Shown here: piece by piece, positions 3,260 through 50,173 of the stretch
Numbering within the stretch: the stretch's first letter is position 1
Layout: each line of letters opens with the position of its first letter
IMG/VR virus record: IMGVR_UViG_3300044946_000048
Span: 24,620 to 88,619 of that record
DNA from: a virus
Direction: 5' to 3' (one strand)
DNA: 64,000 nucleotides
Made by a program: the position numbers and the translations under genes
The notes under the pieces: model-generated
The model's database searches: none
The model's input: only the letters and a program-made list of their open reading frames with translations
What the model was told of the DNA's origin: nothing

Positions 3260-3269
3260 TCGAAACTAA

Positions 3270-3405
3270 TTCCAGGCAACAATCGCGTCGAGAGTCTCTT
3301 GAAGAGGGAGTCGAACCCTGCGCCCGATTTTACTCGGGCACCCAGACCATCCTGGCTATCCCCACGTGGCGGGGATAGAAGTATCTCAAAACTACGGCAC
3401 TGGAA
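3270..3405 (-). ncRNA. Y RNA-like RNA with tRNA-like domain
   Basis: Terminal stem UUCCAG/CUGGAA; shares UGCCGUAG...UACUUC...UUGUUGCC with the RNAs upstream of Ro60; internal D-like arm and AGGG-UUCGACU-CCCU T arm. Confidence 0.75.
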
Positions 3406-3412
3406 AATTGTA

Positions 3413-3508
3413 AGTCGCAGGGCAACAGGCGCATCAGGATAGTGTGGGGATTTCACCCACGTTCCTTTTAGGCAAAGAAGTAACCCGACACTAACGGCAC
3501 CTACGACT
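3413..3508 (-). ncRNA. Y RNA-like RNA (short)
   Basis: Terminal stem AGUCGUAG/CUGCGACU; UGCCGUUAG...GGUUACUUC...CUGUUGCC motif; one T-arm-like hairpin GUGGG-UGAAAUC-CCCAC. Confidence 0.72.
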
Positions 3509-38176: not shown

Positions 38177-38474
38177 CTCCAGTCCAACAAGCTGTGGTTC
38201 GTGCGCTAACTCAGGTTGCGAAGCGCACTGTTTCCGGACGAATTGGCTTGAAGATGATTAAGTGCCCAGCTTGTAATACTCGGCACCGAGAGCCTCGTTG
38301 TGAACAGAGAGTTGTAGTACCAGCATTTCCGTCCAGGCATCCTAAGAAGGTTCGATTCAATCCGCACCTGAAGCACGGGAAGGTCGGACGGGCTCAAGCA
38401 ATAATCGAACGAAACCGAATCGCGAATCGAGTGGCACGTCTTGCTAAGAAAGCGGCGGCGAAAGAAGTGGCACA

Positions 38475-39032
38475 ATGAGTGGATTTTACTTTTGGTTGTA
38501 CAGTTTAATCGAGCCTCTTTACTTGTGGCTTGAGAGTCAGACAGAAGCAGCACAACGTGCAGCACAACGTGCAGCCGAGCGCAAGGCAGTACTCCTAGAT
38601 GCAGAACAGCGACTGACCGCAGTTCGTATGCGCCGCCTGATGGGAACGCAGCCTTTAGGATCATGGCCGAACATATTTGAGAAACCCTGCAAACACTTAA
38701 AGGGTGGACGATACAGACTGCCGGGGCACAAAGATTATGCTACGTGGTGTTTTACTTTTGTTGATGGTTCGACGATAATTAAGTGTGCGATTTGTGGAGA
38801 GAAATGGACACCACAGAGTCCGGATTGGGCCGACGCAATAAAAATGATGGAGCAATCAACGAACACACGCTGTTCTTCAGAAGTGATTTACAGCAAACTA
38901 TTATATTCGGATGGGAAGACTAGAACACCCGAAGAGGCAAAGGCCGAAGGACTCGCTACCTCCTATTCGGAGCAAGAAGAAAAGAACGCAAAAATAGTTG
39001 TTGACAAAGAAGCCGAGAAAGCGGTAGAATGA
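38475..39032 (+). CDS. hypothetical protein
   Basis: 185-aa ORF coupled to the upstream gene. Confidence 0.65.
   Translation: MSGFYFWLYSLIEPLYLWLESQTEAAQRAAQRAAERKAVLLDAEQRLTAVRMRRLMGTQPLGSWPNIFEKPCKHLKGGRYRLPGHKDYATWCFTFVDGSTIIKCAICGEKWTPQSPDWADAIKMMEQSTNTRCSSEVIYSKLLYSDGKTRTPEEAKAEGLATSYSEQEEKNAKIVVDKEAEKAVE
39001..39030 (+). promoter_or_regulatory. sigma70-type promoter of the Y RNA-Ro60 unit
   Basis: TTGACA-18 bp-TAGAAT, 7 nt before the first RNA stem. Confidence 0.8.
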
Positions 39033-39037
39033 TTTTA

Positions 39038-39108
39038 GTGCGGATGCCGTAGGCCAAGGTTACTTCTACGATAAAGGAAAAACACCTTGTCCGTTTGTTG
39101 CCCCGCAC
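39038..39108 (+). ncRNA. Y RNA, minimal form
   Basis: Terminal stem GUGCGG/CCGCAC; UGCCGUAG...GGUUACUUC...UUUGUUGCC; inner CAAGGU/ACCUUG; upstream of Ro60. Confidence 0.75.
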
Positions 39109-39128
39109 ACAAGTTTAGATGTAAAAGT

Positions 39129-39266
39129 TTGACGAGTACCGTAGATTGGGGTTACTTCTGACTACGAATCAGATAGTGTAGGTTCGAATCCTGCGGCTCA
39201 TCCTCATGATGAGTCTAGTGTAATGGTAGCACATCCCGTTACTTCAATCGCTTGTCGTCTCGTCAA
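39129..39266 (+). ncRNA. YrlA-like Y RNA with circularly permuted tRNA domain
   Basis: Terminal stem UUGACGAG/CUCGUCAA; anticodon arm, T arm GUAGG-UUCGAAU-CCUGC, loop-closed acceptor stem and D arm in that order; abuts the Ro60 gene. Confidence 0.85.
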
Positions 39267-39273
39267 TTAGCTC

Positions 39274-40614
39274 ATGAGGATGAACATGAAGTTAAACAAA
39301 GCCACGCAGTTTGCACTAACGAAGTTTACTCACGAAGGCGCACCAGCCTATCGACACACGAATGCAGCCCAGGACCTGAGCCGTTCCGTAATGGCCTGCA
39401 TGTTATGGGAAAATACGTTCTACGAGTCCGGAGAGGAAATTGCTACACGCATCCAGAATCTCGTAAAAGCGGTCGATCCGGAAGTCGTTTCTGCCATCGC
39501 CATCGAAGCGCGTGAAAAGATGAACCTGCGTCATGTTCCTTTGCTATTGGTAACTGCGATGGCGAAGCTGCCGACACACCGTCACGCCGTGGCCGAAACG
39601 GCTGCACGTGTTATTCAGCGTGCGGACGAACTGGCAGAAGTGCTTGCCATTTACACGAAGGGCCGCACGGGAACCAAGAAGTTGAACAAGCTTTCAAACC
39701 AGCTTAAGAAGGGCGTGGCTACCGCGTTCACAAAGTTCAACGAGTACAGCCTGGCGAAGTATAACCAGGACAACGAAATCAAGCTGCGTGACGTTTTGTT
39801 CGCAGTGCACCCTCGTCCGTTGAACGACGAACAGGGCGCAGTGTGGAAGCGCCTGGCTCAGAATGAACTTGCTACGCCAGACACTTGGGAAGTTGCGCTG
39901 TCAGCAACCAAGGACAAGAGAGCGGAGTGGACTCGTCTGTTGACCGAAGAGAAACTCGGCGCACTTGCTTTGCTTCGTAACTTGCGTAATATGCAACAGG
40001 CAGGAGTGGACGAGAAATTGGTTCGCTCTGCATTGGCGGCGATGAAGACAGAACGTGTCCTACCGTTTCGCTTCGTCGGCGCAGCCAACCATGCTCCGCA
40101 GTGGGAGCCAGAGTTGGAAGCTGCAATGTTGAAGAACCTTGCAGAAATGCCGAAGTTGCCGGGCAAGACGGCTATCGTTGTGGATAATTCCGGGTCGATG
40201 TCGGACAGAATTTCTGGAAAGTCAGAACTGTCTCGCATCGATGCAGCTTGCGCACTTGCAATTTTGGTGCGTGAAGTCTGCGAACGAGCCGTCGTGATTG
40301 GTTTCGGTTCAACCGCAGCCGTGATTCCGGCCCGCAAGGGATTCGCTTTGCGTGATGCTATCAAGCGAGGCCCGGGCGGTGGTACGAACACAGACACAGC
40401 GTTGGCGCTCGCAAGGCAGCAAGGCTATGATCGTATCATTGTAATCACGGACGAACAGTCTCACCAGCGTATCTCTGGCCCGTTGTCCAGAGCAAAGGGC
40501 TACTTCATCAACGTTGCGTCAAACAAGAACGGCATCGGTTACGGTGCGTGGACTCACTTGGACGGATGGTCAGAAGCTATTCTCCAGTACATTCAAGCAA
40601 TCGAACAGGTATAA
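39274..40614 (+). CDS. Ro60/TROVE-domain RNA-binding protein (Rsr-like)
   Basis: THEG, E.TFYE, R..MNLR, IQRADE, TWE..LS, ALLRNLRNM, VLPFRF and vWA MIDAS motifs VDNSGSM, GGT, ITDEQ; start may be 39286. Confidence 0.95.
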   Translation: MRMNMKLNKATQFALTKFTHEGAPAYRHTNAAQDLSRSVMACMLWENTFYESGEEIATRIQNLVKAVDPEVVSAIAIEAREKMNLRHVPLLLVTAMAKLPTHRHAVAETAARVIQRADELAEVLAIYTKGRTGTKKLNKLSNQLKKGVATAFTKFNEYSLAKYNQDNEIKLRDVLFAVHPRPLNDEQGAVWKRLAQNELATPDTWEVALSATKDKRAEWTRLLTEEKLGALALLRNLRNMQQAGVDEKLVRSALAAMKTERVLPFRFVGAANHAPQWEPELEAAMLKNLAEMPKLPGKTAIVVDNSGSMSDRISGKSELSRIDAACALAILVREVCERAVVIGFGSTAAVIPARKGFALRDAIKRGPGGGTNTDTALALARQQGYDRIIVITDEQSHQRISGPLSRAKGYFINVASNKNGIGYGAWTHLDGWSEAILQYIQAIEQV

Positions 40615-40615
40615 C

Positions 40616-41395
40616 GTGTTTGAAAAAATTGCCGTCGGCATAAAAACATTTCTGCGAGACGCCAAGCTGTTTAAGGCGGTCGAGGGAATTCGTACCAATA
40701 TGCCGGGGGCTCAGATCATCATCGCAGACGATGGTGATATGGCACATGAGAAATATAACCTATACTCCGATCTTGTCCTTTGCGGGCACAAGGTCGGAGT
40801 ATATTCTTTTGATTCCGGTTTCGGATTCAAGAGTAACATGATCGTCAATATGCTCGATAGGCCGTATCTTTTAATCGGCTCAGATGATTTCGACTTTACG
40901 CCCAAGGCAGCCGAGGGAGTGAAGACGATGATCGATATTATGGAAGAGAATCCGTGGGACCTGGATATTCTAAGCGGACGGCTGAATGGACGAACCTACG
41001 AATTCTTTCTAGAAGACCTAGGGGATACTATCATCGAGCACAAGGCAGACACAAATTTTAAAATGAACGGAACCCGGCCTCTTGTATACCGGGTTGATCT
41101 GACTGTGAATTATAGCTTGATTCGCCGAGACGTGTTCAAGCAAGTTAAGTTTGATAATGAAGAGATTATCGGAGAAGGCGGGCATGGAGCATTCTTTGTG
41201 GACTGCAAGCGTGCAGGACTCAAGGTAGGATTCACACCGCTGGCAGAAATTAATGAGCAGGATCAGCCGGAAGACAGTGCTCGGTACAAACAATTCAGAG
41301 CGCGAGCACACAGCCCATCCCGGAAGACATTCGATAGGCGGGGAATTAAACGATACGTTTTGGGATCAGGAAAGGTTGATTATGATTGTCGTTAA
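40616..41395 (+). CDS. GT-A (GT2-like) glycosyltransferase
   Basis: IKTFLR, IIIADDG, DSG, SDDF motifs; GTG start 1 nt after the Ro60 stop. Confidence 0.85.
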   Translation: MFEKIAVGIKTFLRDAKLFKAVEGIRTNMPGAQIIIADDGDMAHEKYNLYSDLVLCGHKVGVYSFDSGFGFKSNMIVNMLDRPYLLIGSDDFDFTPKAAEGVKTMIDIMEENPWDLDILSGRLNGRTYEFFLEDLGDTIIEHKADTNFKMNGTRPLVYRVDLTVNYSLIRRDVFKQVKFDNEEIIGEGGHGAFFVDCKRAGLKVGFTPLAEINEQDQPEDSARYKQFRARAHSPSRKTFDRRGIKRYVLGSGKVDYDCR

Positions 41396-42020
41396 ATCCT
41401 GTCATCGTGATCGTCTGCGAGGCTGCCATCAAATCATACGCGAAACCTGGGGTAAGGATGCAGAGGTTCGTTTCTTCATGGGTGGTGAAACCACAGATGC
41501 TCTCATGGTGGACGAAACTACTTTAGATTGTCCAGATGACCACGAAGGCTTGCCATTTAAAACAAAAGCAATGTGTCAATGGTTGAAAGATAAAACAGAT
41601 TATGCATTTTTCTGCGACAATGACACGTTTCTCATTCCTCGTCGCTTACTAGCATGCGGCTATGAGAAGTATGATTACGCGGGTAAGATTGATGTTCTCG
41701 GTAAACCCGGCCAGCCTAGAAGCTATAAAGATTGTAGAGGAATTCTTATACCGCAGTGCTATCCGTTTGCAAGCGGAGGATTTGGATATTGGTTGAGTAA
41801 AAGAGCAATGGAATTAGTGGCGTCCCAAGTGCCAACAACTTGGGCTGAAGACATCTTTGTCGCCCAAGTCACAGGTCCTGAGATTCAGGCGGGCAGAATG
41901 ACAGGCTATAACATTCCAAACTTTCCTAATAAAATATCCTGGCATTTTATCAAGAGGCCAGGAGCAGGCTACGAGCCGTTCAACGGCTGGCAGAAAAAGC
42001 TGTACGAGGAAAACAAGTGA
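41382..42020 (+). CDS. GT31/Fringe-like glycosyltransferase
   Basis: IRETW, RFF.G, LP.KT, CDNDT, FASGG.GY.LS, AED motifs. Confidence 0.85.
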   Translation: MIVVKSCHRDRLRGCHQIIRETWGKDAEVRFFMGGETTDALMVDETTLDCPDDHEGLPFKTKAMCQWLKDKTDYAFFCDNDTFLIPRRLLACGYEKYDYAGKIDVLGKPGQPRSYKDCRGILIPQCYPFASGGFGYWLSKRAMELVASQVPTTWAEDIFVAQVTGPEIQAGRMTGYNIPNFPNKISWHFIKRPGAGYEPFNGWQKKLYEENK

Positions 42021-42706
42021 AGCTGTTAGTCGCGGTTAAAAGCTGCAATCGAGACAAGGCGAATGGCTGCCACCAAGCTATTCGTGAGACGTGGGGCAAA
42101 GACTTCCCTGCTAACGTTGACGTTCGATTTTTCGTGGGCAGCGGTGGTCTGTCCGATGATTGGCTTCTCACGGATGAAATACGAGTTAATGCAGACGATA
42201 CTTTAGTTGCGCTACCAGTAAAAGTACGAAAAATGGCTGAATGGTCCGTTGAGCACGGGTATGATTATTCTTATTTCTGTGATGTGGATACGTTCGTAAT
42301 TCCGAAGAGACTGCTGGCGAGTGGCTTCGAGAACTACGACTACTTTGGGCGGTTCATGATTTCCGGAGTTCCGCAATTAATAAAAGATTTCAAGGACGGA
42401 CGACTAGGAACGGTCCATAACGTTTGGAACTATGCATCCGGCGGAGTCGGATATTTCTTAAGCTATAAGGCAGCTGAATTAATTGCTACCATGATACCCG
42501 TGCACTACGCAGAAGATTTCTCAGTCGGACAAGTGCTTGGGCCACTGACAAATTCAGGTGAACTGAAAGTTGCATACCCACCGAAGTTTGATTTGTATTG
42601 CGCCTGGCATTATTGCACGTGGGGCAAGACCAGGTATTGTTGGCCTAACAGTGTTGGCTTTAATCCTCAGTGGATGCGGGATAGTTACAAGAAAGGACAG
42701 CCGTGA
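42017..42706 (+). CDS. GT31/Fringe-like glycosyltransferase
   Basis: IRETW, CDVDT, YASGG.GY.LS, AED motifs. Confidence 0.85.
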   Translation: MKLLVAVKSCNRDKANGCHQAIRETWGKDFPANVDVRFFVGSGGLSDDWLLTDEIRVNADDTLVALPVKVRKMAEWSVEHGYDYSYFCDVDTFVIPKRLLASGFENYDYFGRFMISGVPQLIKDFKDGRLGTVHNVWNYASGGVGYFLSYKAAELIATMIPVHYAEDFSVGQVLGPLTNSGELKVAYPPKFDLYCAWHYCTWGKTRYCWPNSVGFNPQWMRDSYKKGQP

Positions 42707-44280
42707 TAACCGTTAAACTTCAAGGCGGCATTGGCAATCAAATGTTTATTTTTGCCTTGGGCTACGCGCAATCCAAACGATTAGGCGTAGGGTTACAGCT
42801 AGACGTGTCTCTGCTTAACGGACGCAGGAAATATCAGTTGGATCAGTGGCATCGGTTCTGCCCCTTAACACGTGCGCCTCTTCCCGACGAATACTCAACG
42901 GTCACAGGCAAAACTACGACAGTCAACGAAAATGGAATGCCTTATAATCCCGGGCTTCTAGAGCATATCAAAGACGGTGCCGTTATAAATGGTTATTGGC
43001 AAACCGAGAAGTACTTCTCTGACTTTGCAAGTGAAATTCGAGGAATATTTCATCCCCGTGGTTGCAATTCACAACAGGAAAATCTGAATTTTATAGACTG
43101 GTCAAAGAAAATAGAACAAGAAGACGAAAGCGTCTTCGTTCACGTAAGACATGGCGACTACCTCATCGAACCTCACCACAGTTATCACGGCATCCTCCCG
43201 CTGTCATACTATAAATCTGCGATGGATTACATAAGAGGATTATCTCGTGCGCCGAAGTTCTTTGTATTCTCTGATGACGAATCCTGGGTTCGTCAAAATC
43301 TTATCGGGAAAGATGTAACATTCGTAGACATCAAGCAAGAGGCCCATGCTATTAGTTTGATGAGCAAATGCAGGCATGCGATTATTGCCAACAGCAGTTT
43401 CTCATGGTGGGGTGCATGGTTGGGCTACGGCAAGAAAGACGGAATTCACATAGCCCCGAAGCAGTGGTTCGCGTCAAGCAAAGAAGATACCCGAGATATT
43501 ATTCCTGATTTGTGGAACGCAATCAACGTTGTTCCCCTGGCTACGAAGAGAGAACAAGAGCCGGGCAGAAAGATTTTATTTGCCGTTAATTCTTGGGACG
43601 AAGATGCCAGGCGAGGATGTCATCAAGCGATCCGTGAGACATGGGGCAAGGATGTAGTCCCTGCGGATTTGCGTTTCTTCGTTCCTAGAGTGCCGAATCA
43701 TCCACTACTAGCAGACGAAGTGTTCGTAGATGTTCCGCGTGACTACGATTACGTTTGTCGCGAAGTCGTGGAGATTCTCCGTTGGTCACTTAACGAAGGG
43801 TATGATTTTACTTTCTTGGTGAGCAACGACGCATTCGTGCTCCCTCAAAAACTTCTGAAGAGTGGTTTTGAGCAATACGATTATTCTGGTTTCTTCCATG
43901 AGCGAACTCCGTTAGGCGAGATGGCTACCGAAGACTATGAATGCACGTTCAAGACAGAAGCAGGTTATGGTAGACTACGGAAACTTTACAATTGGGCAGA
44001 CGGCGGGGACGGAAGAATGCTTTCTCGTAAAGCAGCCGAGATTATCGTAGCAAGTCCGGATGCAGCATATTGGCTCGCAGCCGATGACATTTTTATCGGC
44101 CAAGCACTCGGGCCACACATTCATAACGGTAGGATAAAAGCCTGGAACATAGGCCAGCACAAGGACGCGGTTCCGGACAACGGGATTACTTGGCACTTTA
44201 AGAACTATCCTGAACACAAGGGAGCGCGATACGAGCCGAATGTAGGATGGATGCAAAAGATGTATAAGGAACACGCATGA
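42703..44280 (+). CDS. alpha-1,2-fucosyltransferase (GT11) fused to a GT31-like domain
   Basis: GGIGNQMF, GYWQ.EKYF, HVRHGDY, FSDD, NSSFSWWGAWL, followed by a second IRETWGKD domain. Confidence 0.9.
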   Translation: MITVKLQGGIGNQMFIFALGYAQSKRLGVGLQLDVSLLNGRRKYQLDQWHRFCPLTRAPLPDEYSTVTGKTTTVNENGMPYNPGLLEHIKDGAVINGYWQTEKYFSDFASEIRGIFHPRGCNSQQENLNFIDWSKKIEQEDESVFVHVRHGDYLIEPHHSYHGILPLSYYKSAMDYIRGLSRAPKFFVFSDDESWVRQNLIGKDVTFVDIKQEAHAISLMSKCRHAIIANSSFSWWGAWLGYGKKDGIHIAPKQWFASSKEDTRDIIPDLWNAINVVPLATKREQEPGRKILFAVNSWDEDARRGCHQAIRETWGKDVVPADLRFFVPRVPNHPLLADEVFVDVPRDYDYVCREVVEILRWSLNEGYDFTFLVSNDAFVLPQKLLKSGFEQYDYSGFFHERTPLGEMATEDYECTFKTEAGYGRLRKLYNWADGGDGRMLSRKAAEIIVASPDAAYWLAADDIFIGQALGPHIHNGRIKAWNIGQHKDAVPDNGITWHFKNYPEHKGARYEPNVGWMQKMYKEHA

Positions 44281-44975
44281 GAATTCTATTCGCAATCAAT
44301 TCGTTCGATGTGGCGGCTAAGAGGGGTTGGCACCAAGTAATTCGCGAGACCTGGGGCAAGGACGTTGCACCAGCAGACCTGCGTTTCTTTATTCCAAAAT
44401 CCGGTAGCTATACGCCGCTCGCAGACGAAGTCTTCCTAGACGTGTCTGCCGAATACGAGAAAATATGCATCGAAGTCGTTGAGATGCTTAAGTGGGGCGT
44501 CGAACATGGATACGACTACATTATGATGGCAAGCACGGACTCATACGTGATTCCTAAAAAGGTCTTAGCATGCGGGTTCGAGAAGTATGACTACGCGGGA
44601 GATTGGGCGTTTGGTGAGCAGGTTCCGTTTGGGGAAGTCAATCCCATTCCTATGAACTGCACCTTTAAGACTGAAGGCGGATATGCCGTTGACCGCAATC
44701 TTTATAACTGGTGTGGATGCGGGCCTGTGCGGGTACTATCCAGGAAGGCAGCAGCCATCGTTGCTCCGTGCAGGAAAGAAGCAGAATTCTGGCACTCGGC
44801 GGACGATATCATGATCGGACAAATTCTCGGCCCGCGCATCAAGAGCGGGGAAATACTTCCTTATCGTATCCCGGACTACGGCGCAAAGATGGTATGGCAC
44901 TACAAGCATACTGAGAAAAAGCCATATAGCGTTGAAGGTGGATGGATGAAAAAGATGTATGAGGAGCACAAATGA
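44277..44975 (+). CDS. GT31-like glycosyltransferase paralog
   Basis: IRETWGKDV.PADLRFF; closely resembles the C-terminal domain of the upstream gene. Confidence 0.8.
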   Translation: MRILFAINSFDVAAKRGWHQVIRETWGKDVAPADLRFFIPKSGSYTPLADEVFLDVSAEYEKICIEVVEMLKWGVEHGYDYIMMASTDSYVIPKKVLACGFEKYDYAGDWAFGEQVPFGEVNPIPMNCTFKTEGGYAVDRNLYNWCGCGPVRVLSRKAAAIVAPCRKEAEFWHSADDIMIGQILGPRIKSGEILPYRIPDYGAKMVWHYKHTEKKPYSVEGGWMKKMYEEHK

Positions 44976-45607
44976 GCAGTCTCTGGTTGAAGAACCACAA
45001 AAAGGATATCAACAGTCAGTGCGGTGACGATGGTATCATACAGGCTATCTTTGACAAGATCGGTGTAACGAATCGATGGTGCTGCGAATTCGGAGCATAC
45101 AATGGAAAGGCGTATTCTAATACCCGTGCGCTGATTGACCAAGGCTGGCAAGGTGTCATGATTGAACCAAGCGAAGATTTTCACGCCTTAGTAAATAACA
45201 TGAAAGACTATCCTGTGATCTGTATGCAGGAATTCGTCGGAACCAACCTAGATGAACTTCTGGCTCGTACACCGATTCCTGTGGATTTTGACTTACTATC
45301 CATTGACACTGATAACGGGTCTTATTATACATGGGAAGCTTTAAAAAATTATAAACCTCGTGTTGTGGATTTCGAAGTGAATGCGTTCTATTCGGCGGAC
45401 GAACGGCATACCCCAGACATGCCCGCATCGGACTGGACACGTGAAGGCGTATCCATAGCCCCTGCGGTTGAATTAGCGAAGAGTAAAGGCTATGAACTTG
45501 CCATATGCGGTGGGTGGAATGCTTTCTTCGTCCTACGCGAATATGTTGATGTTCTCGGGATCGATACTGTTAACTGGAAATCACTCTTTGGATATCCGCA
45601 TTGGTAG
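44972..45607 (+). CDS. FkbM-like SAM methyltransferase
   Basis: SQ.G.DG.I, EFGA.NG...SNT..L...W.G..IE, DLLSIDTD. Confidence 0.8.
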   Translation: MSSLWLKNHKKDINSQCGDDGIIQAIFDKIGVTNRWCCEFGAYNGKAYSNTRALIDQGWQGVMIEPSEDFHALVNNMKDYPVICMQEFVGTNLDELLARTPIPVDFDLLSIDTDNGSYYTWEALKNYKPRVVDFEVNAFYSADERHTPDMPASDWTREGVSIAPAVELAKSKGYELAICGGWNAFFVLREYVDVLGIDTVNWKSLFGYPHW

Positions 45608-46281
45608 AAAGGATAATTATGGAACCTTTAATTTCAATTTTGCACCCGACAGTAAGACCTACGCACTGGAATCATGTAGCTGCGGACTGGCACAAAACCT
45701 GTGACCGTTCAGAGTTCGTAGAATACGTACTCGTGCCCGAAAGGAAGCACTTTCCGAACGGTCTTCCTGATAAGACGCCATTTCAGAGCAGTCTGATTCA
45801 GTTCAATGAAGAGGCTGCGTCTACCGTAGGAGGATATAATTTCGGGGCTCGAATCTCTCATGGCAAAGTTCTCGTTTGCGTTGCTGATGATTTCTATCCT
45901 GCTCGGCATTGGGATACGGATATCCTGGATTTGCTACGAGGCAAAATGGACCAGGAAGTGATCGTTCAAGTGGATACAGGGATGCCTCAGTTCGATGACA
46001 ATTTTATACCGCTTCCGTTTTTGACCAGGAAATACTACGAAAGAAACAACTACATATTCTGGCCGGAGTACGTGTCTTATTACGCCGACGTGGACTTCAC
46101 GGAGATGGCAAAATTGAGCGGAGCAGAAATCATCAATGCTCGTCATTTGAAGTTTCGTCACCTGCAAGGCGGCACCACAGGCGCGTTCCGAGGCGACCAG
46201 CATTATATAAGAAATGGCACGGACGGTGTGGCCGATGGTGTTCTGTATGGCAAACGTCATGCGGCGAGAGAATCTCGATGA
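45601..46281 (+). CDS. GT-A (GT2-like) glycosyltransferase
   Basis: ISILHPT.R, ADDFYP...WD, Y.SYYAD.DF, F.H. Confidence 0.75.
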   Translation: MVERIIMEPLISILHPTVRPTHWNHVAADWHKTCDRSEFVEYVLVPERKHFPNGLPDKTPFQSSLIQFNEEAASTVGGYNFGARISHGKVLVCVADDFYPARHWDTDILDLLRGKMDQEVIVQVDTGMPQFDDNFIPLPFLTRKYYERNNYIFWPEYVSYYADVDFTEMAKLSGAEIINARHLKFRHLQGGTTGAFRGDQHYIRNGTDGVADGVLYGKRHAARESR

Positions 46282-46859
46282 TTCCTGTTTATCCGCCAAG
46301 CATCCATAATACGGTTGTAGACTATGTTCTGCACGACGGCGATGTTGTGTTGGACATCGGCGGATATCACGGGGAGTGGACCGCAGTCTTGCTGAATAAA
46401 AACAAGGACATAAATTGCCGAGTCTTTGTTTTTGAACCAGTGGGAAGATTCTATGACGAGATAAAGTTACGATTCGAGGGAAGGCCCAATATTACGGTTT
46501 TGAACGTAGCCTTATCGGACGCGACCGGATACGATACAATAGTCGAAATGGAAGAAGGATCGCACATAGAAGATTCGGATTACGAAATCGAAACTCTTGA
46601 CGTTGTGGATTTCTTCAAGAAATACGCCATCAAAAGAGTTGCTTTAGCGAGCGTTAACATCGAAGGCCATGAGTTCGTATTACTTCCTAGGCTTATCGAA
46701 TCCGGATTTATAGACAATATAGAGAAACTACAAATTCAGTTCCACGAAACGTACCCAAACGCTGTCGAACGACGGGACAAAATTAGAGAGTGGCTAGGGG
46801 TAACGCATGAAGAAGTTTATTGCTATCCCTTTGTGTGGGAGTGCTGGAAAAAGAAATGA
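46278..46859 (+). CDS. FkbM-family methyltransferase
   Basis: VLDIGGYHG, FEPV, NIEG.EF, LQIQFH. Confidence 0.88.
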   Translation: MIPVYPPSIHNTVVDYVLHDGDVVLDIGGYHGEWTAVLLNKNKDINCRVFVFEPVGRFYDEIKLRFEGRPNITVLNVALSDATGYDTIVEMEEGSHIEDSDYEIETLDVVDFFKKYAIKRVALASVNIEGHEFVLLPRLIESGFIDNIEKLQIQFHETYPNAVERRDKIREWLGVTHEEVYCYPFVWECWKKK

Positions 46860-47806
46860 TTATATCTAAGACGCCATTTCGAATGTCTTTCATAGGCGGA
46901 GGCACTGACCGTCCCGAGTTTTATGAAAAGCAGCAAGGGGCTGTTATTAGCACTGCGATAGACAAGTACGTCTACATCACGGTCAACACCCGATTTGATG
47001 ACACGATTCGCATCAGCTATTCCAAGACAGAAATAGCGGACAAGTTGGCGGATATAAAGCACGAGAGATTCAGAGAAGCAATGCGAATGGTAGGAGTTAC
47101 GCAAGGCGTGGAGATTACATCCATAGCGGACATGCCCGCTGGCAGCGGCATGGGCTCATCTAGCAGTTTCACGGTTGGGGCACTCAACGCACTTTCCGCC
47201 TATCAGGGAATAGGTTTGTCTGCGAAAGTTTTGGCCGAAGCTGCGTGCAGGCTGGAAATAGGCACGCTTAATGAGCCTATCGGCAAACAGGATCAGTACG
47301 CAGCAGCCTACGGCGGACTCCGTCGGTATCTGTTCAACCCAGACGGTACGGTCTTCGTGGACCCTGTCGTCACTTCAGACCTTAGGATGCGGGAATTCTA
47401 CGACAGCTTGATGCTCTTCTATGTAGGCGGAGAACGAAAAGCTTCCGACGTACTGAGCGCGTCCGTCGCTCCAGATACTCGTATGCGAACACTAGTGGAC
47501 GATTTCTGGAAGATTCTCACGACGGGCGATATCCGAGAACTCGGGGAGATTTTTCACGAGGGTTGGGAGATTAAGAAGCGCACCGGAGCCGTCACCAGCC
47601 CACAGATAGATGAGTGCTACGAATTAGCTTGCAAAGCGGGTGCTAGTGGTGGTAAACTACTAGGTGCTGGAGGGGCGGGCTTCTTAATGCTCTTCGTTAA
47701 TCCTCAACAGCAGCGCAAGGTGCGTAAAGTTTTTTGGCAGACGCACAACCCGAGATGGATTCCGTTTCAGTTCGAGCCCGAAGGGAGCAAGATTATTTTA
47801 TGTTGA
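46856..47806 (+). CDS. hddA: D-glycero-alpha-D-manno-heptose-7-phosphate kinase (GHMP family)
   Basis: KTPFRMSFIGGGTD, PAGSGMGSSS, GKQDQYAAAYGG, GGKLLGAGG.GF. Confidence 0.88.
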   Translation: MIISKTPFRMSFIGGGTDRPEFYEKQQGAVISTAIDKYVYITVNTRFDDTIRISYSKTEIADKLADIKHERFREAMRMVGVTQGVEITSIADMPAGSGMGSSSSFTVGALNALSAYQGIGLSAKVLAEAACRLEIGTLNEPIGKQDQYAAAYGGLRRYLFNPDGTVFVDPVVTSDLRMREFYDSLMLFYVGGERKASDVLSASVAPDTRMRTLVDDFWKILTTGDIRELGEIFHEGWEIKKRTGAVTSPQIDECYELACKAGASGGKLLGAGGAGFLMLFVNPQQQRKVRKVFWQTHNPRWIPFQFEPEGSKIILC

Positions 47807-48381
47807 CTGATGTTTGCAATTACAAAAAGGAATTAGATAGTTGTTGGGACGAACTTGTTCCGGCTCAATTGACTCGTGTCATTTCTCAGTTGATGAAACG
47901 GGGTACTACGATTTTCATATTAGGGAACGGCGGGAGCGCAGCGACCGCATCCCATATGGCAGTGGATTTAGCCAAGGGAACCCAGGTTAAAGGGTTCCCT
48001 TCACTGAAGGCAATCAGCCTGACGGATAACGTTGGCATGCTGACAGCCTGGGCAAACGATGTAGCCTATCAATCTATTTTCAAAGAGCAGTTAGCAGTAC
48101 TCATGAAGCCACGCGACACTGTTATCGGTATCTCGGCCTCGGGAAATTCTCCGAACATTTCGGCAGCAATAGCCTACGCTAAGATGAACGGTGGCTTTAC
48201 GATTGGTTTTAGCGGATTCGGCGGCGGCGCTTTGAAACGTTTGGTAGACTTGGATATCACAGTGTCATCCCGTAACTACGGAGCGGTGGAAGATTTTCAC
48301 TTGAGTTTGAATCATATGATTACGCAGTTCATCAAACGATTTCGAGAGGGAGGCGAAAAATGGGACAATCCATCTTGGTAA
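47800..48381 (+). CDS. gmhA: sedoheptulose-7-phosphate isomerase (SIS domain)
   Basis: GNGGSAATASH, TAWAND..Y..IF..Q, ISASGNSPN, VED.H....H. Confidence 0.9.
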   Translation: MLTDVCNYKKELDSCWDELVPAQLTRVISQLMKRGTTIFILGNGGSAATASHMAVDLAKGTQVKGFPSLKAISLTDNVGMLTAWANDVAYQSIFKEQLAVLMKPRDTVIGISASGNSPNISAAIAYAKMNGGFTIGFSGFGGGALKRLVDLDITVSSRNYGAVEDFHLSLNHMITQFIKRFREGGEKWDNPSW

Positions 48382-49121
48382 CGGGAAACAAAGGATACAT
48401 CGGTTCACACTTGCTGTATCATGTTAGCAGACTAAAGGTGCCGATATATTATTGTGATTTAGAAGGCGGTCTGGATTTCGGCGTCATGAGAGGATATCAT
48501 TTTGATTACGTTATCCATCTGGCGGCGCACGCTTCTGTGACTCAATCCATGCTAGACCCGGACGAGTGCTTTGAGAATAATGCTTTCAAATTGATACCCT
48601 TTTTGCAATATAACAAAATCGGAAAGCTGATATTCACTTCGACAGGCGGAGCCATTTACGGAAATAAACTCAACGCCAAGGAAGAGGATGCTAGCTGGAA
48701 CGGTTGTATTTCGCCTTACGGACAGTCCAAGTATCTTGCTGAGAAGATTATCCGCAGGATGCACCCGAACCATTGCATACTGCGCTTAGGCAACGTCTGG
48801 GGCGGGCAGGATTCCAATAGGCTTGAATTAGCCATGCATGCATGCTTTGCAAAAGACAATCCAATCGTAGTCTATGGCGGGACCCAGATCAGAGATTTTA
48901 TCCATGTAGAAACTGTCTGCAAGGCCATCATGCGAGCGATAAAATTGGATGTTACAGGCACGTTCAATCTCGGAGACGGACAAAAGAAAATTAAGGATGT
49001 CGCAGAAGAGTATGCAGCAAAACGTAACGTGGACATTCGCTACGCCATGGCACGTCCAGGAGAAATCGATTACGTCAGCTTGGATAGTACGCGGGCGCAC
49101 GAAGCAGGACTATTGCCATGA
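48360..49121 (+). CDS. NAD-dependent sugar epimerase/dehydratase
   Basis: VTGNKGYIG, HLAA, STGGAIYG, YGQSK, RDFIHV. Confidence 0.9.
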   Translation: MGQSILVTGNKGYIGSHLLYHVSRLKVPIYYCDLEGGLDFGVMRGYHFDYVIHLAAHASVTQSMLDPDECFENNAFKLIPFLQYNKIGKLIFTSTGGAIYGNKLNAKEEDASWNGCISPYGQSKYLAEKIIRRMHPNHCILRLGNVWGGQDSNRLELAMHACFAKDNPIVVYGGTQIRDFIHVETVCKAIMRAIKLDVTGTFNLGDGQKKIKDVAEEYAAKRNVDIRYAMARPGEIDYVSLDSTRAHEAGLLP

Positions 49122-50173
49122 AAACCACAATCGTCACGACAACCGTGCGGGTTCCAACATTTTTAACTGCATACCACGAGAACGCAAAGTACTTCGGGCA
49201 TGAGGTGGACTTTGTCGTTGCAGGAGATTTGAAGAGTGATAATCACGCTACACGAGCATTCTGCGACACGATACCGAATTGCGAATACCTAGGACCAACA
49301 GACCAGCGAGAGTTTATAAAGGATTCCCCGCTTGAGACATTGCCTTGGAATTCACCGGGACGCAGGAACGTAGCATTGCTTTGGGCATACAGTCATGGTG
49401 CGGACGTAATCATCACGCTTGACGACGACAATCTTGCCACGGCTGCGGATGCAGTCGGGGAGCACACGGCGTCTATCGGAAACATATTCCCGAGAGGAAT
49501 GGTTAGATCGAAACAGAAAGGATGGTTCAACGTCTGTGGCATGCTGCAAGAAAGGCACAACGTCGAGTTTTACCATCGGGGCTATCCGCCAGCGCAACGT
49601 TGGAACGACGACTTTATCGATCTTGTGTACTCGGGTGTAACAGGCCAGCATGCGGTAGTGAACGCAGGACTATGGACGGGCGACCCTGATACAGATGCAA
49701 TTACTAGACTTGAACGTCCTCTTATTTCTGACGGCTTCCGGTCAAAAGATTTAACTAAGGTAGTTCTTGCGCCTGGCACATGGTCCCCGTTCAACTGCCA
49801 GAACACGGCACTGGCTCGGGAGATTATCCCTGCTTACTTTCTTAATCCGATGATTGGCAGGCATGATGATATTTTTGCAAGCTTCATCATCAATCGACTT
49901 GCAGAACATTTTGGACATGTAATCTCATTTGGTACGCCGTTGGCATTTCACGACCGAAGCCCGCACGACTTGTGGAAGGACTTGGAAGCAGAGCAAGGAG
50001 GAATGCAATTAACAGATGGTTTCGTCGCTGCTTTGCGGGACATGAAACTGACGGCGAAAACGTACCACGAAGGATTCGGTCAAGTCATGGAAGGGCTAGG
50101 CTCTTGGGGATGGCACCATGACATGTGGGCGTTCATAATGCACATGCAAAACTGGTATGAGGTGTTTAAATGA
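49118..50173 (+). CDS. GT75/RGP- or STELLO-like protein
   Basis: LDDDN, HRGYP, GLW.GDPD.DAI.RL, PFN.QNT, GR.DDI, H.R..HD...DL..E. Confidence 0.7.
   Translation: MKTTIVTTTVRVPTFLTAYHENAKYFGHEVDFVVAGDLKSDNHATRAFCDTIPNCEYLGPTDQREFIKDSPLETLPWNSPGRRNVALLWAYSHGADVIITLDDDNLATAADAVGEHTASIGNIFPRGMVRSKQKGWFNVCGMLQERHNVEFYHRGYPPAQRWNDDFIDLVYSGVTGQHAVVNAGLWTGDPDTDAITRLERPLISDGFRSKDLTKVVLAPGTWSPFNCQNTALAREIIPAYFLNPMIGRHDDIFASFIINRLAEHFGHVISFGTPLAFHDRSPHDLWKDLEAEQGGMQLTDGFVAALRDMKLTAKTYHEGFGQVMEGLGSWGWHHDMWAFIMHMQNWYEVFK

What the first reader, a model, noticed from the sequence alone, without database searches (positions are those of the whole stretch)
39129..39266. Y RNA holding an entire circularly permuted tRNA-Arg(ACG), anticodon arm included
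Seen, in order: UCUGA-CUACGAA-UCAGA (anticodon arm, ACG), UAGU, a T arm, the acceptor 3' strand GGCUCAU, a 7-nt loop, the acceptor 5' strand AUGAGUC, UA, and the D arm GUGU-AAUGGUA-GCAC. This is a full tRNA opened between positions 26 and 27. Known: described YrlA RNAs mimic the D, T and acceptor arms, with the Ro-binding stem in place of the anticodon arm. Inference: an anticodon-displaying decoy tethered to Ro60, an evolutionary intermediate, or a permuted tRNA precursor.
Basis: partly seen in the sequence, partly recalled or inferred. Interest (0 to 1): 0.82.

Follow-up and report, generated by a model that had tools for sequence, protein, structure and literature searches.

The report
Phage Y RNA with anticodon-like arm
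This soil-phage RNA is a normal partner RNA of the Ro60 protein that is shaped like a back-to-front tRNA, and its anticodon-like hairpin is a common trait of this RNA family in phages and bacteria, not a one-off.

Summary
At 39129-39266 (+), 20 nt upstream of a Ro60 (TROVE+vWA) gene, lies a Y RNA. Its ends pair into a Ro-type stem. Its middle reads anticodon-like hairpin (5 bp, loop CUACGAA), UAGU, T arm, closed 7-8 bp acceptor hairpin, UA, D arm.

It is not exceptional. In a sample limited to close relatives of this Ro60, 50 of 93 distinct YrlA-type modules from phages and bacteria have the same 5/7/5 hairpin followed by a 4-5 nt variable loop. Loop position 2 is U in 47/50, position 6 a purine in 48/50, position 7 A in 44/50. 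The middle triplet differs at 69% of sites between otherwise near-identical RNAs, so ACG is incidental.

By position this hairpin is the 'V' stem-loop that Chen et al. 2014 described in many YrlAs. I could not see their figures.

Covariation shows the top two stem pairs are made with the nucleotides just after the D arm. In the family the tRNA is therefore opened at about 28/29, not 26/27.

Verdict: a new member of a known kind. The complete-cloverleaf reading of the V arm is a modest new angle that fits the published dimeric-tRNA origin model. This scan found related tRNA/Y-RNA chimeras before, on other DNA.

The parts
39001..39030 (+). sigma-70-like promoter (TTGACA, 18 nt, TAGAAT) in front of the Y RNA - Ro60 unit
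   Evidence: 11 of 12 consensus matches. It is a consensus match only. No terminator-like site lies between it and the Ro60 start.
39032..39114 (+). YrlB-like Y RNA: same Ro-type scaffold, A-rich loop, no tRNA body
   Evidence: Rfam YrlB RF02565 at 19.6 bits, far below the gathering score of 97.: it shares the CCGTAG...TTACTTC motif with the YrlA.
39129..39266 (+). whole YrlA-type Y RNA (hairpin-bearing, 'H-type')
39130..39136 (+). basal stem, 5' strand; pairs with 39259-39265
   Evidence: MFE fold
39137..39145 (+). 5' side of the presumed Ro60-binding internal loop (CCGUAG; relatives have GGCGUAG or GGUGAAG, compare GNCGAAN0-1G of Chen 2014)
   Evidence: Binding is inferred, not tested.
39144..39155 (+). 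upper stem 5' strand, ending in the conserved YUAY (UUAC 39152-39155); pairs with 39238-39249
   Evidence: the motif is conserved
39157..39173 (+). anticodon-like arm (the family's 'V' stem-loop): 5 bp plus the 7-nt loop CUACGAA
39174..39177 (+). variable loop UAGU (U48 at 39177 pairs with A15 at 39223)
39178..39194 (+). T arm
   Evidence: this helix is paired in 100% of cells across 48 rows.
39195..39215 (+). closed acceptor stem-loop (7 bp, or 8 bp with a 5-nt loop)
   Evidence: 97.3% of cells are paired, and all 7 pairs show changes on both sides.
39216..39232 (+). U8 A9 and the D arm
39233..39235 (+). A26, then U and C, which can pair with A43 (39173) and G42 (39172): the family's long-range top of the anticodon stem
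39250..39258 (+). 3' side of the presumed Ro60-binding internal loop (UUGUCG; relatives have UUGUUCC)
39286..40614 (+). Ro60 homologue (442 aa, TROVE plus vWA)
   Evidence: TROVE 6.1e-18, VWA_2 4.1e-08.: relatives.

Best explanation
This is a YrlA-class Y RNA of an uncultured soil phage. It is probably co-transcribed with a YrlB-like Y RNA and the phage Ro60 gene from one promoter and cut out of the precursor.

Its 5' and 3' ends form the stem and internal loop that dock on Ro60. Its distal module is a complete, circularly permuted tRNA-like cloverleaf. The anticodon-like hairpin is the family's known 'V' stem-loop.

In this branch of the family that hairpin has true anticodon-arm geometry: a 5-bp stem, a 7-nt loop with U at loop position 2 and a purine at position 6, then a 4-5 nt variable loop of AGGUC type. 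The stem is composite. Its top two pairs use the nucleotides that follow the D arm and N26, its lower pairs are local, and the Ro stem branches from the 5' strand of the anticodon stem.

The triplet ACG is incidental.

Inferred mechanism, by analogy with Deinococcus and Salmonella Rsr-Y RNA-PNPase and with Thermus phage phiLo Ro60-Yrl-PNPase: the stem holds Ro60, and the tRNA-shaped module recruits a tRNA-binding effector or PNPase and resists nucleases. The likely service is RNA surveillance during infection by a phage that carries about 35 tRNAs (note; 28 ARAGORN calls in the window, plus 4 Rfam tRNA hits upstream).

The arm is most simply a retained piece of the ancestral tRNA, kept because it completes the fold.
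For: Shown:
- Anatomy and fold.
- Ro60 gene 20 nt downstream on the same strand.
- Promoter-like site upstream and no terminator-like site before Ro60.
- The same scaffold motif in 3 places of the window against 0.06 expected.
- T, acceptor and D helices paired in 97-100% of cells across 48 related RNAs, with many two-sided changes.
- 50 of 93 distinct modules have the 5/7/5 hairpin. Loop composition: position 1 C41/A7, position 2 U47, position 6 A28/G20, position 7 A44. The selection did not use loop letters.
- The phage's 27 real tRNAs give nearly the same signature: position 32 C21/U6, 33 U27, 37 A25/G2, 38 A20/C7.
- Long-range pairs 27':43 and 28':42 are each formed in 45/46 rows, with 3 and 4 pair types, and 0 of 2000 shuffles reach this. 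On a MAFFT alignment: GC32 AU7 UA4 CG3 other 2.
- The local partners of 42/43 show no two-sided change.
- The triplet differs at 69% of sites, against 3-7% for loop positions 32/33, the stem and the T arm, in 267 near-identical pairs.
- The hairpin type occurs in Acidobacteriota, a Bacteroidota MAG, CcrColossus and Xanthomonas phage Sopo.

From papers:
- V stem-loop, YUAY at the start of the V loop, Levitt covariation (PMC4201824, section 6, read).
- Dimeric-tRNA origin and likeness to permuted tRNAs (10.1101/312249, Discussion, read).
- Phage Ro60-Yrl-host PNPase complex (PMC12135203, abstract and passages).
Against: - Rfam's YrlA model scores only 17.1 bits (gathering score 69) and covers T-AS-D only.
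- There are no expression, binding or processing data. No RNA run holds the stretch.
- I could not see the figures or supplements of Chen 2014. The equation 'V = this hairpin' therefore rests on the text (position upstream of T, YUAY at its start).
- The sample is limited to Ro60 genes about 50-67% identical to this one. It was found with a home-made scanner that misses real cases (L002, L013, L017 at 1338, Sopo).
- Rows are related, so counts of cells are not counts of events.
- The H-type rows were chosen for inner local pairs, so those pairs are paired by construction.
- In the window itself the local 5-bp hairpin is all Watson-Crick and the long-range alternative is only 2 bp.
- The effector is unknown. 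No RNA-repair gene lies in the 20 ORFs checked around it.
Confidence: 0.84

Rival explanations
1. Arg-specific decoy or enzyme substrate. The hairpin copies the tRNA-Arg(ACG) anticodon arm so that an anticodon-directed enzyme acts on the Ro60-tethered RNA instead of, or as well as, the real tRNA. Candidates are the A34 deaminase TadA or an Arg-tRNA anticodon nuclease.
For: - The 7-nt loop is identical to that of the phage's own tRNA-Arg(ACG).
- The stem is 5 Watson-Crick pairs.
- From my own knowledge, not checked here: TadA accepts anticodon-arm minihelices with a UACG loop.
- tRNA-Arg(ACG) genes lie upstream of Ro60 in 4 related loci: L002, L014, L017, L018.
Against: - ACG occurs once among 50 loops with 28 different triplets. 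With 48-50 loops, any given triplet is expected about once by chance.
- The triplet is at near-saturation divergence between near-identical RNAs.
- The stem differs from the tRNA-Arg stem.
- Triplets unusual for bacterial anticodons (ACU, AUU, AUG, ACC) occur in relatives.
Confidence: 0.06
2. Permuted tRNA precursor. The RNA is processed into a working or chargeable tRNA-like molecule by removal of the Ro stem, opening of the acceptor loop by RNase P and CCA addition.
For: - The acceptor hairpin has 7 or more bp here and in 35 of 50 H-type modules.
- M. smegmatis YrlA with a 7-bp stem is cut by RNase P and receives CCA (PMC4201824, section 8, read).
- Wang et al. 2018 raise processing as a possibility (Discussion, read).
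Against: - The phage already has a canonical tRNA-Arg(ACG).
- Acceptor hairpins vary from 12 to 48 nt among relatives.
- Triplets include unusual anticodons.
- No bacterial enzyme is known that would excise the Ro stem and rejoin the anticodon stem (Wang 2018 Discussion).
- No RNase P RNA was found in the phage record at gathering scores.
Confidence: 0.04
3. Plain variable arm. The hairpin is only a stabilising extra arm, as in class II tRNAs, and its likeness to an anticodon arm is coincidence.
For: - Chen et al. 2014 label it V and equate it with the variable arm (section 6, read).
- Hairpins of other sizes occur at the same place: a 3-nt loop in L019, 6-nt and 8-nt loops in L030, L080, L152.
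- YrlB-type RNAs without a tRNA body can carry a similar hairpin after YUAC-UUC (L008, L009; L020).
Against: - 4-5 nt of AGGUC type follow the hairpin, as after an anticodon stem; from my own knowledge a class II variable arm is followed by only 1-2 nt.
- The local and long-range pairs sum to a 5-bp stem.
- The loop signature matches real anticodon loops of the same phage.
- tRNA finders read it as an anticodon arm in L002, L017, L018 and in the GenBank record of CcrColossus.
Confidence: 0.06

Closest known systems
YrlA (Y RNA-like A; Rfam RF02553; Chen et al. 2014 PMC4201824; structure 6CU1, Wang et al. 2018, 10.1101/312249)
   Same: - Lies next to Ro60/Rsr on the same strand.
- Ends pair into a Ro-binding stem.
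- T arm, closed acceptor hairpin, UA and D arm come in that order.
- Levitt pair 15:48.
- YUAY before the region upstream of T.
- A 'V' stem-loop upstream of T in many members.
   Different: - The crystallised Salmonella RNA has a long-range anticodon stem and 'lacks the anticodon loop' (Wang 2018).
- Here a 7-nt loop closes a local hairpin.
- The Rfam model is not reached (17.1 against 69 bits).
- The 5' motif is CCGUAG, not GNCGAA.
Mycobacterium smegmatis YrlA (Chen et al. 2014, section 8)
   Same: - 7-bp acceptor-like stem.
- Y RNAs upstream of rsr, processed from one precursor.
   Different: [quoted passage not shown]
Caulobacter phage CcrColossus and Xanthomonas phage Sopo YrlA-type RNAs upstream of their TROVE genes (JX100810.1, LR743529.1)
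   Same: - Same hairpin-bearing design: loops AUCUGGA and CUGUUAA, then AGGUC, T, acceptor hairpin, D.
- Ro60 is 50-51% identical.
   Different: - Other triplets.
- The CcrColossus acceptor hairpin is 48 nt.
- In GenBank the 5' half is annotated as tRNA-Gln.
Thermus phage phiLo Ro60 with Yrl1/Yrl2 and host PNPase (PMC12135203)
   Same: Phage Ro60 with two Y RNA-like genes just upstream, and an RNP that engages host PNPase.
   Different: None of the searched terms YrlA, tRNA-like or anticodon occurs in the paper's main text (0 occurrences each); its Y RNA-like RNAs are described as stem-bulge-stem with a CGAA motif.
Circularly permuted tRNA genes of red algae and an archaeon (cited in Wang et al. 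2018 Discussion; originals not read)
   Same: [quoted passage not shown]
   Different: Those are spliced and ligated into working tRNAs. Nothing suggests that here.
Dimeric-tRNA origin model of Y RNAs (Sim and Wolin 2018, as summarised in Wang et al. 2018; original not held)
   Same: - The T arm would come from a first tRNA and the D arm from a second.
- The hairpin-bearing RNAs still show the first tRNA's anticodon arm and variable loop in order.
- Their 5' halves are called as tRNAs by ARAGORN or by GenBank annotators.
   Different: The model has the first tRNA's anticodon arm absorbed into the Ro stem. Here it persists as a hairpin.

Membership tests
YrlA-type bacterial/phage Y RNA | Encoded within about 4 kb of a Ro60/TROVE gene, on the same strand | tested here: met
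   The RNA ends at 39266 and the Ro60 ORF starts at 39286.
YrlA-type bacterial/phage Y RNA | 5' and 3' ends pair, with a GNCGAAN0-1G-like motif near the 5' end | tested here: inconclusive
   The stem is present. The motif here is CCGUAG, a variant of the GGCGUAG or GGUGAAG of relatives. Ro60 binding is not testable here.
YrlA-type bacterial/phage Y RNA | Conserved T arm, closed acceptor stem-loop, UA, conserved D arm, in that order | tested here: met
   Helices are 97-100% paired with covariation across 48 rows.
YrlA-type bacterial/phage Y RNA | Levitt pair 15:48 kept as G:C or A:U | tested here: met
   A15 (39223) and U48 (39177). Relatives with A15 mostly have U48 by eye. No formal count was made.
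YrlA-type bacterial/phage Y RNA | Reaches the Rfam RF02553 gathering score (69 bits) | tested here: not met
   17.1 bits over model positions 24-84. The model has no V hairpin.
YrlA-type bacterial/phage Y RNA | Bound by Ro60 in vivo and carrying tRNA-type modifications | not testable with these tools
   No RNA run holds the stretch.
canonical tRNA gene | Full cloverleaf in 5'-acceptor to 3'-acceptor order with free ends | tested here: not met
   ARAGORN makes no call. The Rfam tRNA match is partial, model positions 10-63. The acceptor is a closed loop.
tRNA-Arg(ACG) mimic | ACG loop conserved among homologues | tested here: not met
   1 of 50 loops, 28 distinct triplets. 69% divergence at the triplet.
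circularly permuted tRNA precursor | Processing signals at the junction and a ligated mature form | not tested
   No bulge-helix-bulge search was made and no RNA data exist.

The most novel reading that the evidence does not exclude
The hairpin-bearing YrlAs are 'anticodon-displaying' Y RNAs. A conserved U-turn-type loop presents a triplet that is free to change. That triplet would be a specificity element of the Ro60 particle.

Two forms are possible:
- Bait or sensor for enzymes that attack or modify anticodon loops. Here that would be enzymes acting on tRNA-Arg(ACG), with which the loop is identical.
- A three-base guide that kisses target RNAs.

If RNase P opens the 7-bp acceptor hairpin, the particle would carry a two-piece, CCA-ended tRNA.
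Probability: 0.09. Interest if true: 0.75.

Novelty: new member of a known kind. Interest (0 to 1): 0.36.

Why it matters
It corrects a tempting over-reading. The anticodon-like arm is real but is a family trait, so this phage RNA is not a special Arg decoy.

The survey done to show this gives three small things of use to people who work on Y RNAs:
- In this Ro60 clade, about half of the tRNA-like Y RNAs are complete cloverleaves whose extra arm has anticodon-arm geometry and loop signature.
- The anticodon stem is built from three strands, so the Ro stem branches from within it. This can be tested by probing or by a structure.
- These RNAs look like surviving intermediates of the proposed origin of Y RNAs from tandem tRNAs.

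They also explain some spurious tRNA annotations next to phage Ro60 genes.

Tried and rejected
- DNA search of 38400-41000 against named phages found no match. Relatives therefore had to be reached through the Ro60 protein.
- Rfam YrlA and YrlB models score far below their thresholds. They were of no use for collecting relatives, so I wrote a pattern scanner. It misses real cases whose acceptor hairpin has an early mismatch.
- A first automatic hairpin classification chose wrong registers for many rows. I replaced it with a fixed 5/7/5 plus 4-5 nt test.
- The MAFFT alignment A2 puts the window row one column off in the hairpin and shifts the 5' strand of the CUUCA-type rows. Its counts for the inner local pairs are therefore too low. 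The anchored Python counts are the better ones for those.
- I looked for a phage RNase P RNA and found none at gathering scores, in the window or in the other 24.6 kb of the record. Protein-only RNase P was not searched.
- I tried to fetch a mycobacteriophage YrlA of the kind aligned by Chen et al., to compare its V arm. Neither tblastn listing shown contained a Mycobacterium phage (only 40 of 91 and 40 of 94 records were listed). I dropped this.
- No RNA holder was listed for the stretch.
- Laying DNA contigs of four runs showed a close strain with 12 substitutions and a 22-nt deletion in 801 nt, and none in the YrlA. Zero where about 2 are expected is not significant.
- The 2018 and 2020 Wolin-lab reviews and Burroughs and Aravind 2016 are not held. 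Supplements are closed. A statement in print that the V arm looks like an anticodon arm may therefore exist that I could not see.
- The control genomes of the genome search family search gave nothing useful.

Full report
**What is there.** The window is part of an 88.6-kb IMG/VR viral record with a large tRNA array.
- An outer stem is made by the two ends.
- Inside it come a hairpin UCUGA-CUACGAA-UCAGA (39157-39173), UAGU, a T arm (39178-39194), a closed acceptor hairpin (39195-39215), UA and a D arm (39218-39232).

Free folding gives the same picture (-44.7 kcal/mol, z -2.80, 3 of 200 shuffles as good). Rfam's tRNA model matches 39141-39194 over model positions 10-63 at 30.9 bits. ARAGORN makes no call there.

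Twenty bases downstream starts a 442-aa protein with TROVE and vWA domains. A YrlB-like RNA with the same scaffold lies at 39032-39114 (weak). A near-consensus promoter-like site lies at 39001-30. The scaffold motif occurs three times in the window against 0.06 expected.

**Is the arm unusual?** Chen et al. 2014 (PMC4201824, sections 5, 6, 8, 10 read) state three things.
- They equate V with the variable arm.
- A conserved YUAY begins the V loop.

Here UUAC (39152-55) stands two bases before the hairpin, so by position the hairpin is V. I could not see their figures or supplements.

**The survey.** I collected Ro60 loci through the protein:
- 18 and then 80 viral contigs (478 relatives exist in that collection);
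- 80 genome contigs, mostly Acidobacteriota;
- six named phages.

A scanner for T arm, closed hairpin, two bases and D arm found 98 modules in 83 of 179 sources. Of these, 93 are distinct and have enough upstream sequence. Fifty of the 93 have five bases, a 7-nt loop, five bases with at least the inner pairs formed, and then 4-5 bases before the T stem. Two of the 50 are doubtful.

Loop letters were not used in the selection, yet:
- position 1 is C in 41 and A in 7;
- position 2 is U in 47;
- position 6 is a purine in 48;
- position 7 is A in 44;
- the three middle positions give 28 different triplets.

The phage's 27 real tRNAs give C21/U6, U27, A25/G2 and A20/C7 at positions 32, 33, 37 and 38. 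The 4-5 bases after the hairpin are mostly AGGUC, the usual tRNA variable loop.

CcrColossus and Xanthomonas phage Sopo carry the same design. In CcrColossus the 5' half is annotated in GenBank as tRNA-Gln. ARAGORN likewise called pseudo-tRNAs on the 5' halves in L002, L017 and L018, with the hairpin triplet as the anticodon.

The arm is therefore a conserved family trait in this Ro60 clade.

**Caveats on the survey.**
- The sample is restricted to Ro60 genes roughly 50-67% identical to this one.
- The scanner misses cases.
- Rows are related.

**Finer structure.** In 46 distinct hairpin-type rows, the last two bases of the hairpin's 3' strand (positions 43 and 42) pair with the two bases that follow N26 after the D stem. 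This holds in 45/46 rows each.
- Pair types are CG43/GC1/UA1 and CG31/UA7/AU4/GC3.
- None of 2000 shuffles reaches this.
- Sliding by one base destroys it.

Their local partners are the invariant UU of the YUAC-UUC motif. Those form only U-G or U-A pairs, mispair exactly where 42 has become U or C, and score no better than shuffles.

The tool count on a MAFFT alignment of 48 rows agrees. The long-range pair shows 14 two-sided changes and the local pair none.

The inner local pairs are paired by construction of the set, but they vary (GC/CG, CG/AU). Hairpin-type modules have 2 or 3 consecutive long-range pairs in 44 of 50 cases. By contrast, 19 of the 43 other modules have 4-6 long-range pairs and no loop, which is the Salmonella-like open type. 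Both types often sit in tandem in one genome.

The family's anticodon stem is therefore made of three strands, and the Ro stem leaves it at about 28/29. In the window, U39234:A39173 and C39235:G39172 fit this; the U:A is the only one in the set. The local five-pair hairpin is also perfect, so both forms are possible.

**Is ACG meaningful?** The loop equals that of the phage's tRNA-Arg(ACG), but the stems differ. ACG occurs once in 50 loops.

Among 267 pairs of modules whose backbone differs by at most 12%, the triplet differs at 69% of sites. Loop positions 32/33 differ at 3%, the stem at 4% and the T arm at 6.5% (pairs are not independent). I read the triplet as unconstrained. A close strain has no change in the RNA, but that is not significant.

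**How it probably works.** What is shown is the anatomy, the gene context and the conservation. The rest is inferred.
- The stem docks on Ro60.
- The tRNA-shaped module engages a tRNA-binding effector or PNPase and resists nucleases. This is what is proposed for YrlA (Chen 2014 section 10; Wang 2018 Discussion) and shown for a phage Ro60 with host PNPase (PMC12135203, abstract and passages).
- The 7-8 bp acceptor hairpin resembles that of M. smegmatis YrlA, which RNase P cuts (Chen 2014 section 8). This is untested here, and the phage record shows no RNase P RNA.
- Neighbouring genes are for replication and sugar metabolism, not RNA repair.

**Comparison and novelty.** The RNA is a YrlA-type Y RNA that fails the Rfam threshold but meets the structural definition. 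The arm is the known V stem-loop.

What I did not find in the papers I could read is the statement that V has full anticodon-arm geometry and loop signature and a composite stem (searches; texts). It may stand in figures, supplements or reviews that I could not open.

It fits the dimeric-tRNA origin model quoted by Wang et al. 2018. Earlier agents of this scan reported the inverse design, a tRNA with a Ro-binding arm, on other DNA. I did not test those reports.

**Verdict.**
- Observation: confirmed.
- Interpretation: partly supported.
- Class: new member of a known kind.
- Interest: modest.

Noticed in passing
window 3268-3403 (-) and 3425-3508 (-): Two more RNAs with the same Ro-type scaffold (terminal stem, CCGU(U)AG, stem, UACUUC, variable insert, UUGUUGCC) sit inside the tRNA array. 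One has a T-arm-like hairpin, and ARAGORN calls it 'tRNA-???'. The phage therefore has four Y-type RNAs with different inserts.
   Followed up: partly
window 39032-39114; deletion after 39069: The YrlB-like RNA shares CUACGA with the YrlA loop region. In two soil runs a close strain lacks 22 nt of its loop region. Another run's contig carries a different 5' part with an AUGCUAA-type hairpin.
   Followed up: no
L180 (Caulobacter phage CcrColossus JX100810.1) 361-428: The GenBank 'tRNA-Gln' next to the TROVE gene is the 5' half of a hairpin-type YrlA (anticodon-like loop AUCUGGA, then the T arm). Its D arm lies 60 nt further on, after a 48-nt acceptor hairpin.
   Followed up: partly
L002 1288-1357, L017 1293-1359, L018 1312-1381: ARAGORN calls short odd tRNAs (Gln-uug, Ser-acu, His-gug) that are the 5' halves of hairpin-type YrlAs. 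Such calls next to Ro60 genes are probably annotation artefacts.
   Followed up: partly
L111, L113, L117, L162, L173, L017, L018, L027: Many genomes carry a hairpin-type and an open-type YrlA in tandem upstream of one Ro60 gene. This suggests a division of labour between the two forms.
   Followed up: no
L002 779-853, L014 399-475, L017 666-754, L018 771-846: A tRNA-Arg(ACG) gene lies 0.6-1.1 kb upstream of Ro60 in four related phage loci. The one in L017 is 89 nt long.
   Followed up: no
L004/L048 1345-1490: L004, whose two Y RNAs have the scaffold most like the window's (its Ro60 is 57% identical; L020's is 67%), has a second Y RNA with the same stem but a different insert: a long hairpin and a T arm near the 3' side, with no D arm. 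The payload changes faster than the scaffold.
   Followed up: no
L100-L179: The nearest cellular Ro60 genes (57-62% identity) are almost all from Acidobacteriota (Terriglobia) MAGs, and the DNA is held by soil metagenome runs. The host may be a soil acidobacterium.
   Followed up: no
window 42017-50173 (+): Downstream of Ro60 lies a run of glycosyltransferase, FkbM methyltransferase, GHMP kinase, SIS and epimerase genes. This is a sugar-nucleotide or glycan module in a phage.
   Followed up: no
window 39141-39156 and relatives: The 5' Ro-stem strand (G-U/A-A-G, 6-8 nt, YUAC) is aligned by Rfam's tRNA model as a D arm. The preceding 'CG-UA-G' resembles tRNA positions 6-10. This may be a relic of the first tRNA in the dimeric-origin model. 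The GAAG variants do not covary, so it is probably not a helix today.
   Followed up: no
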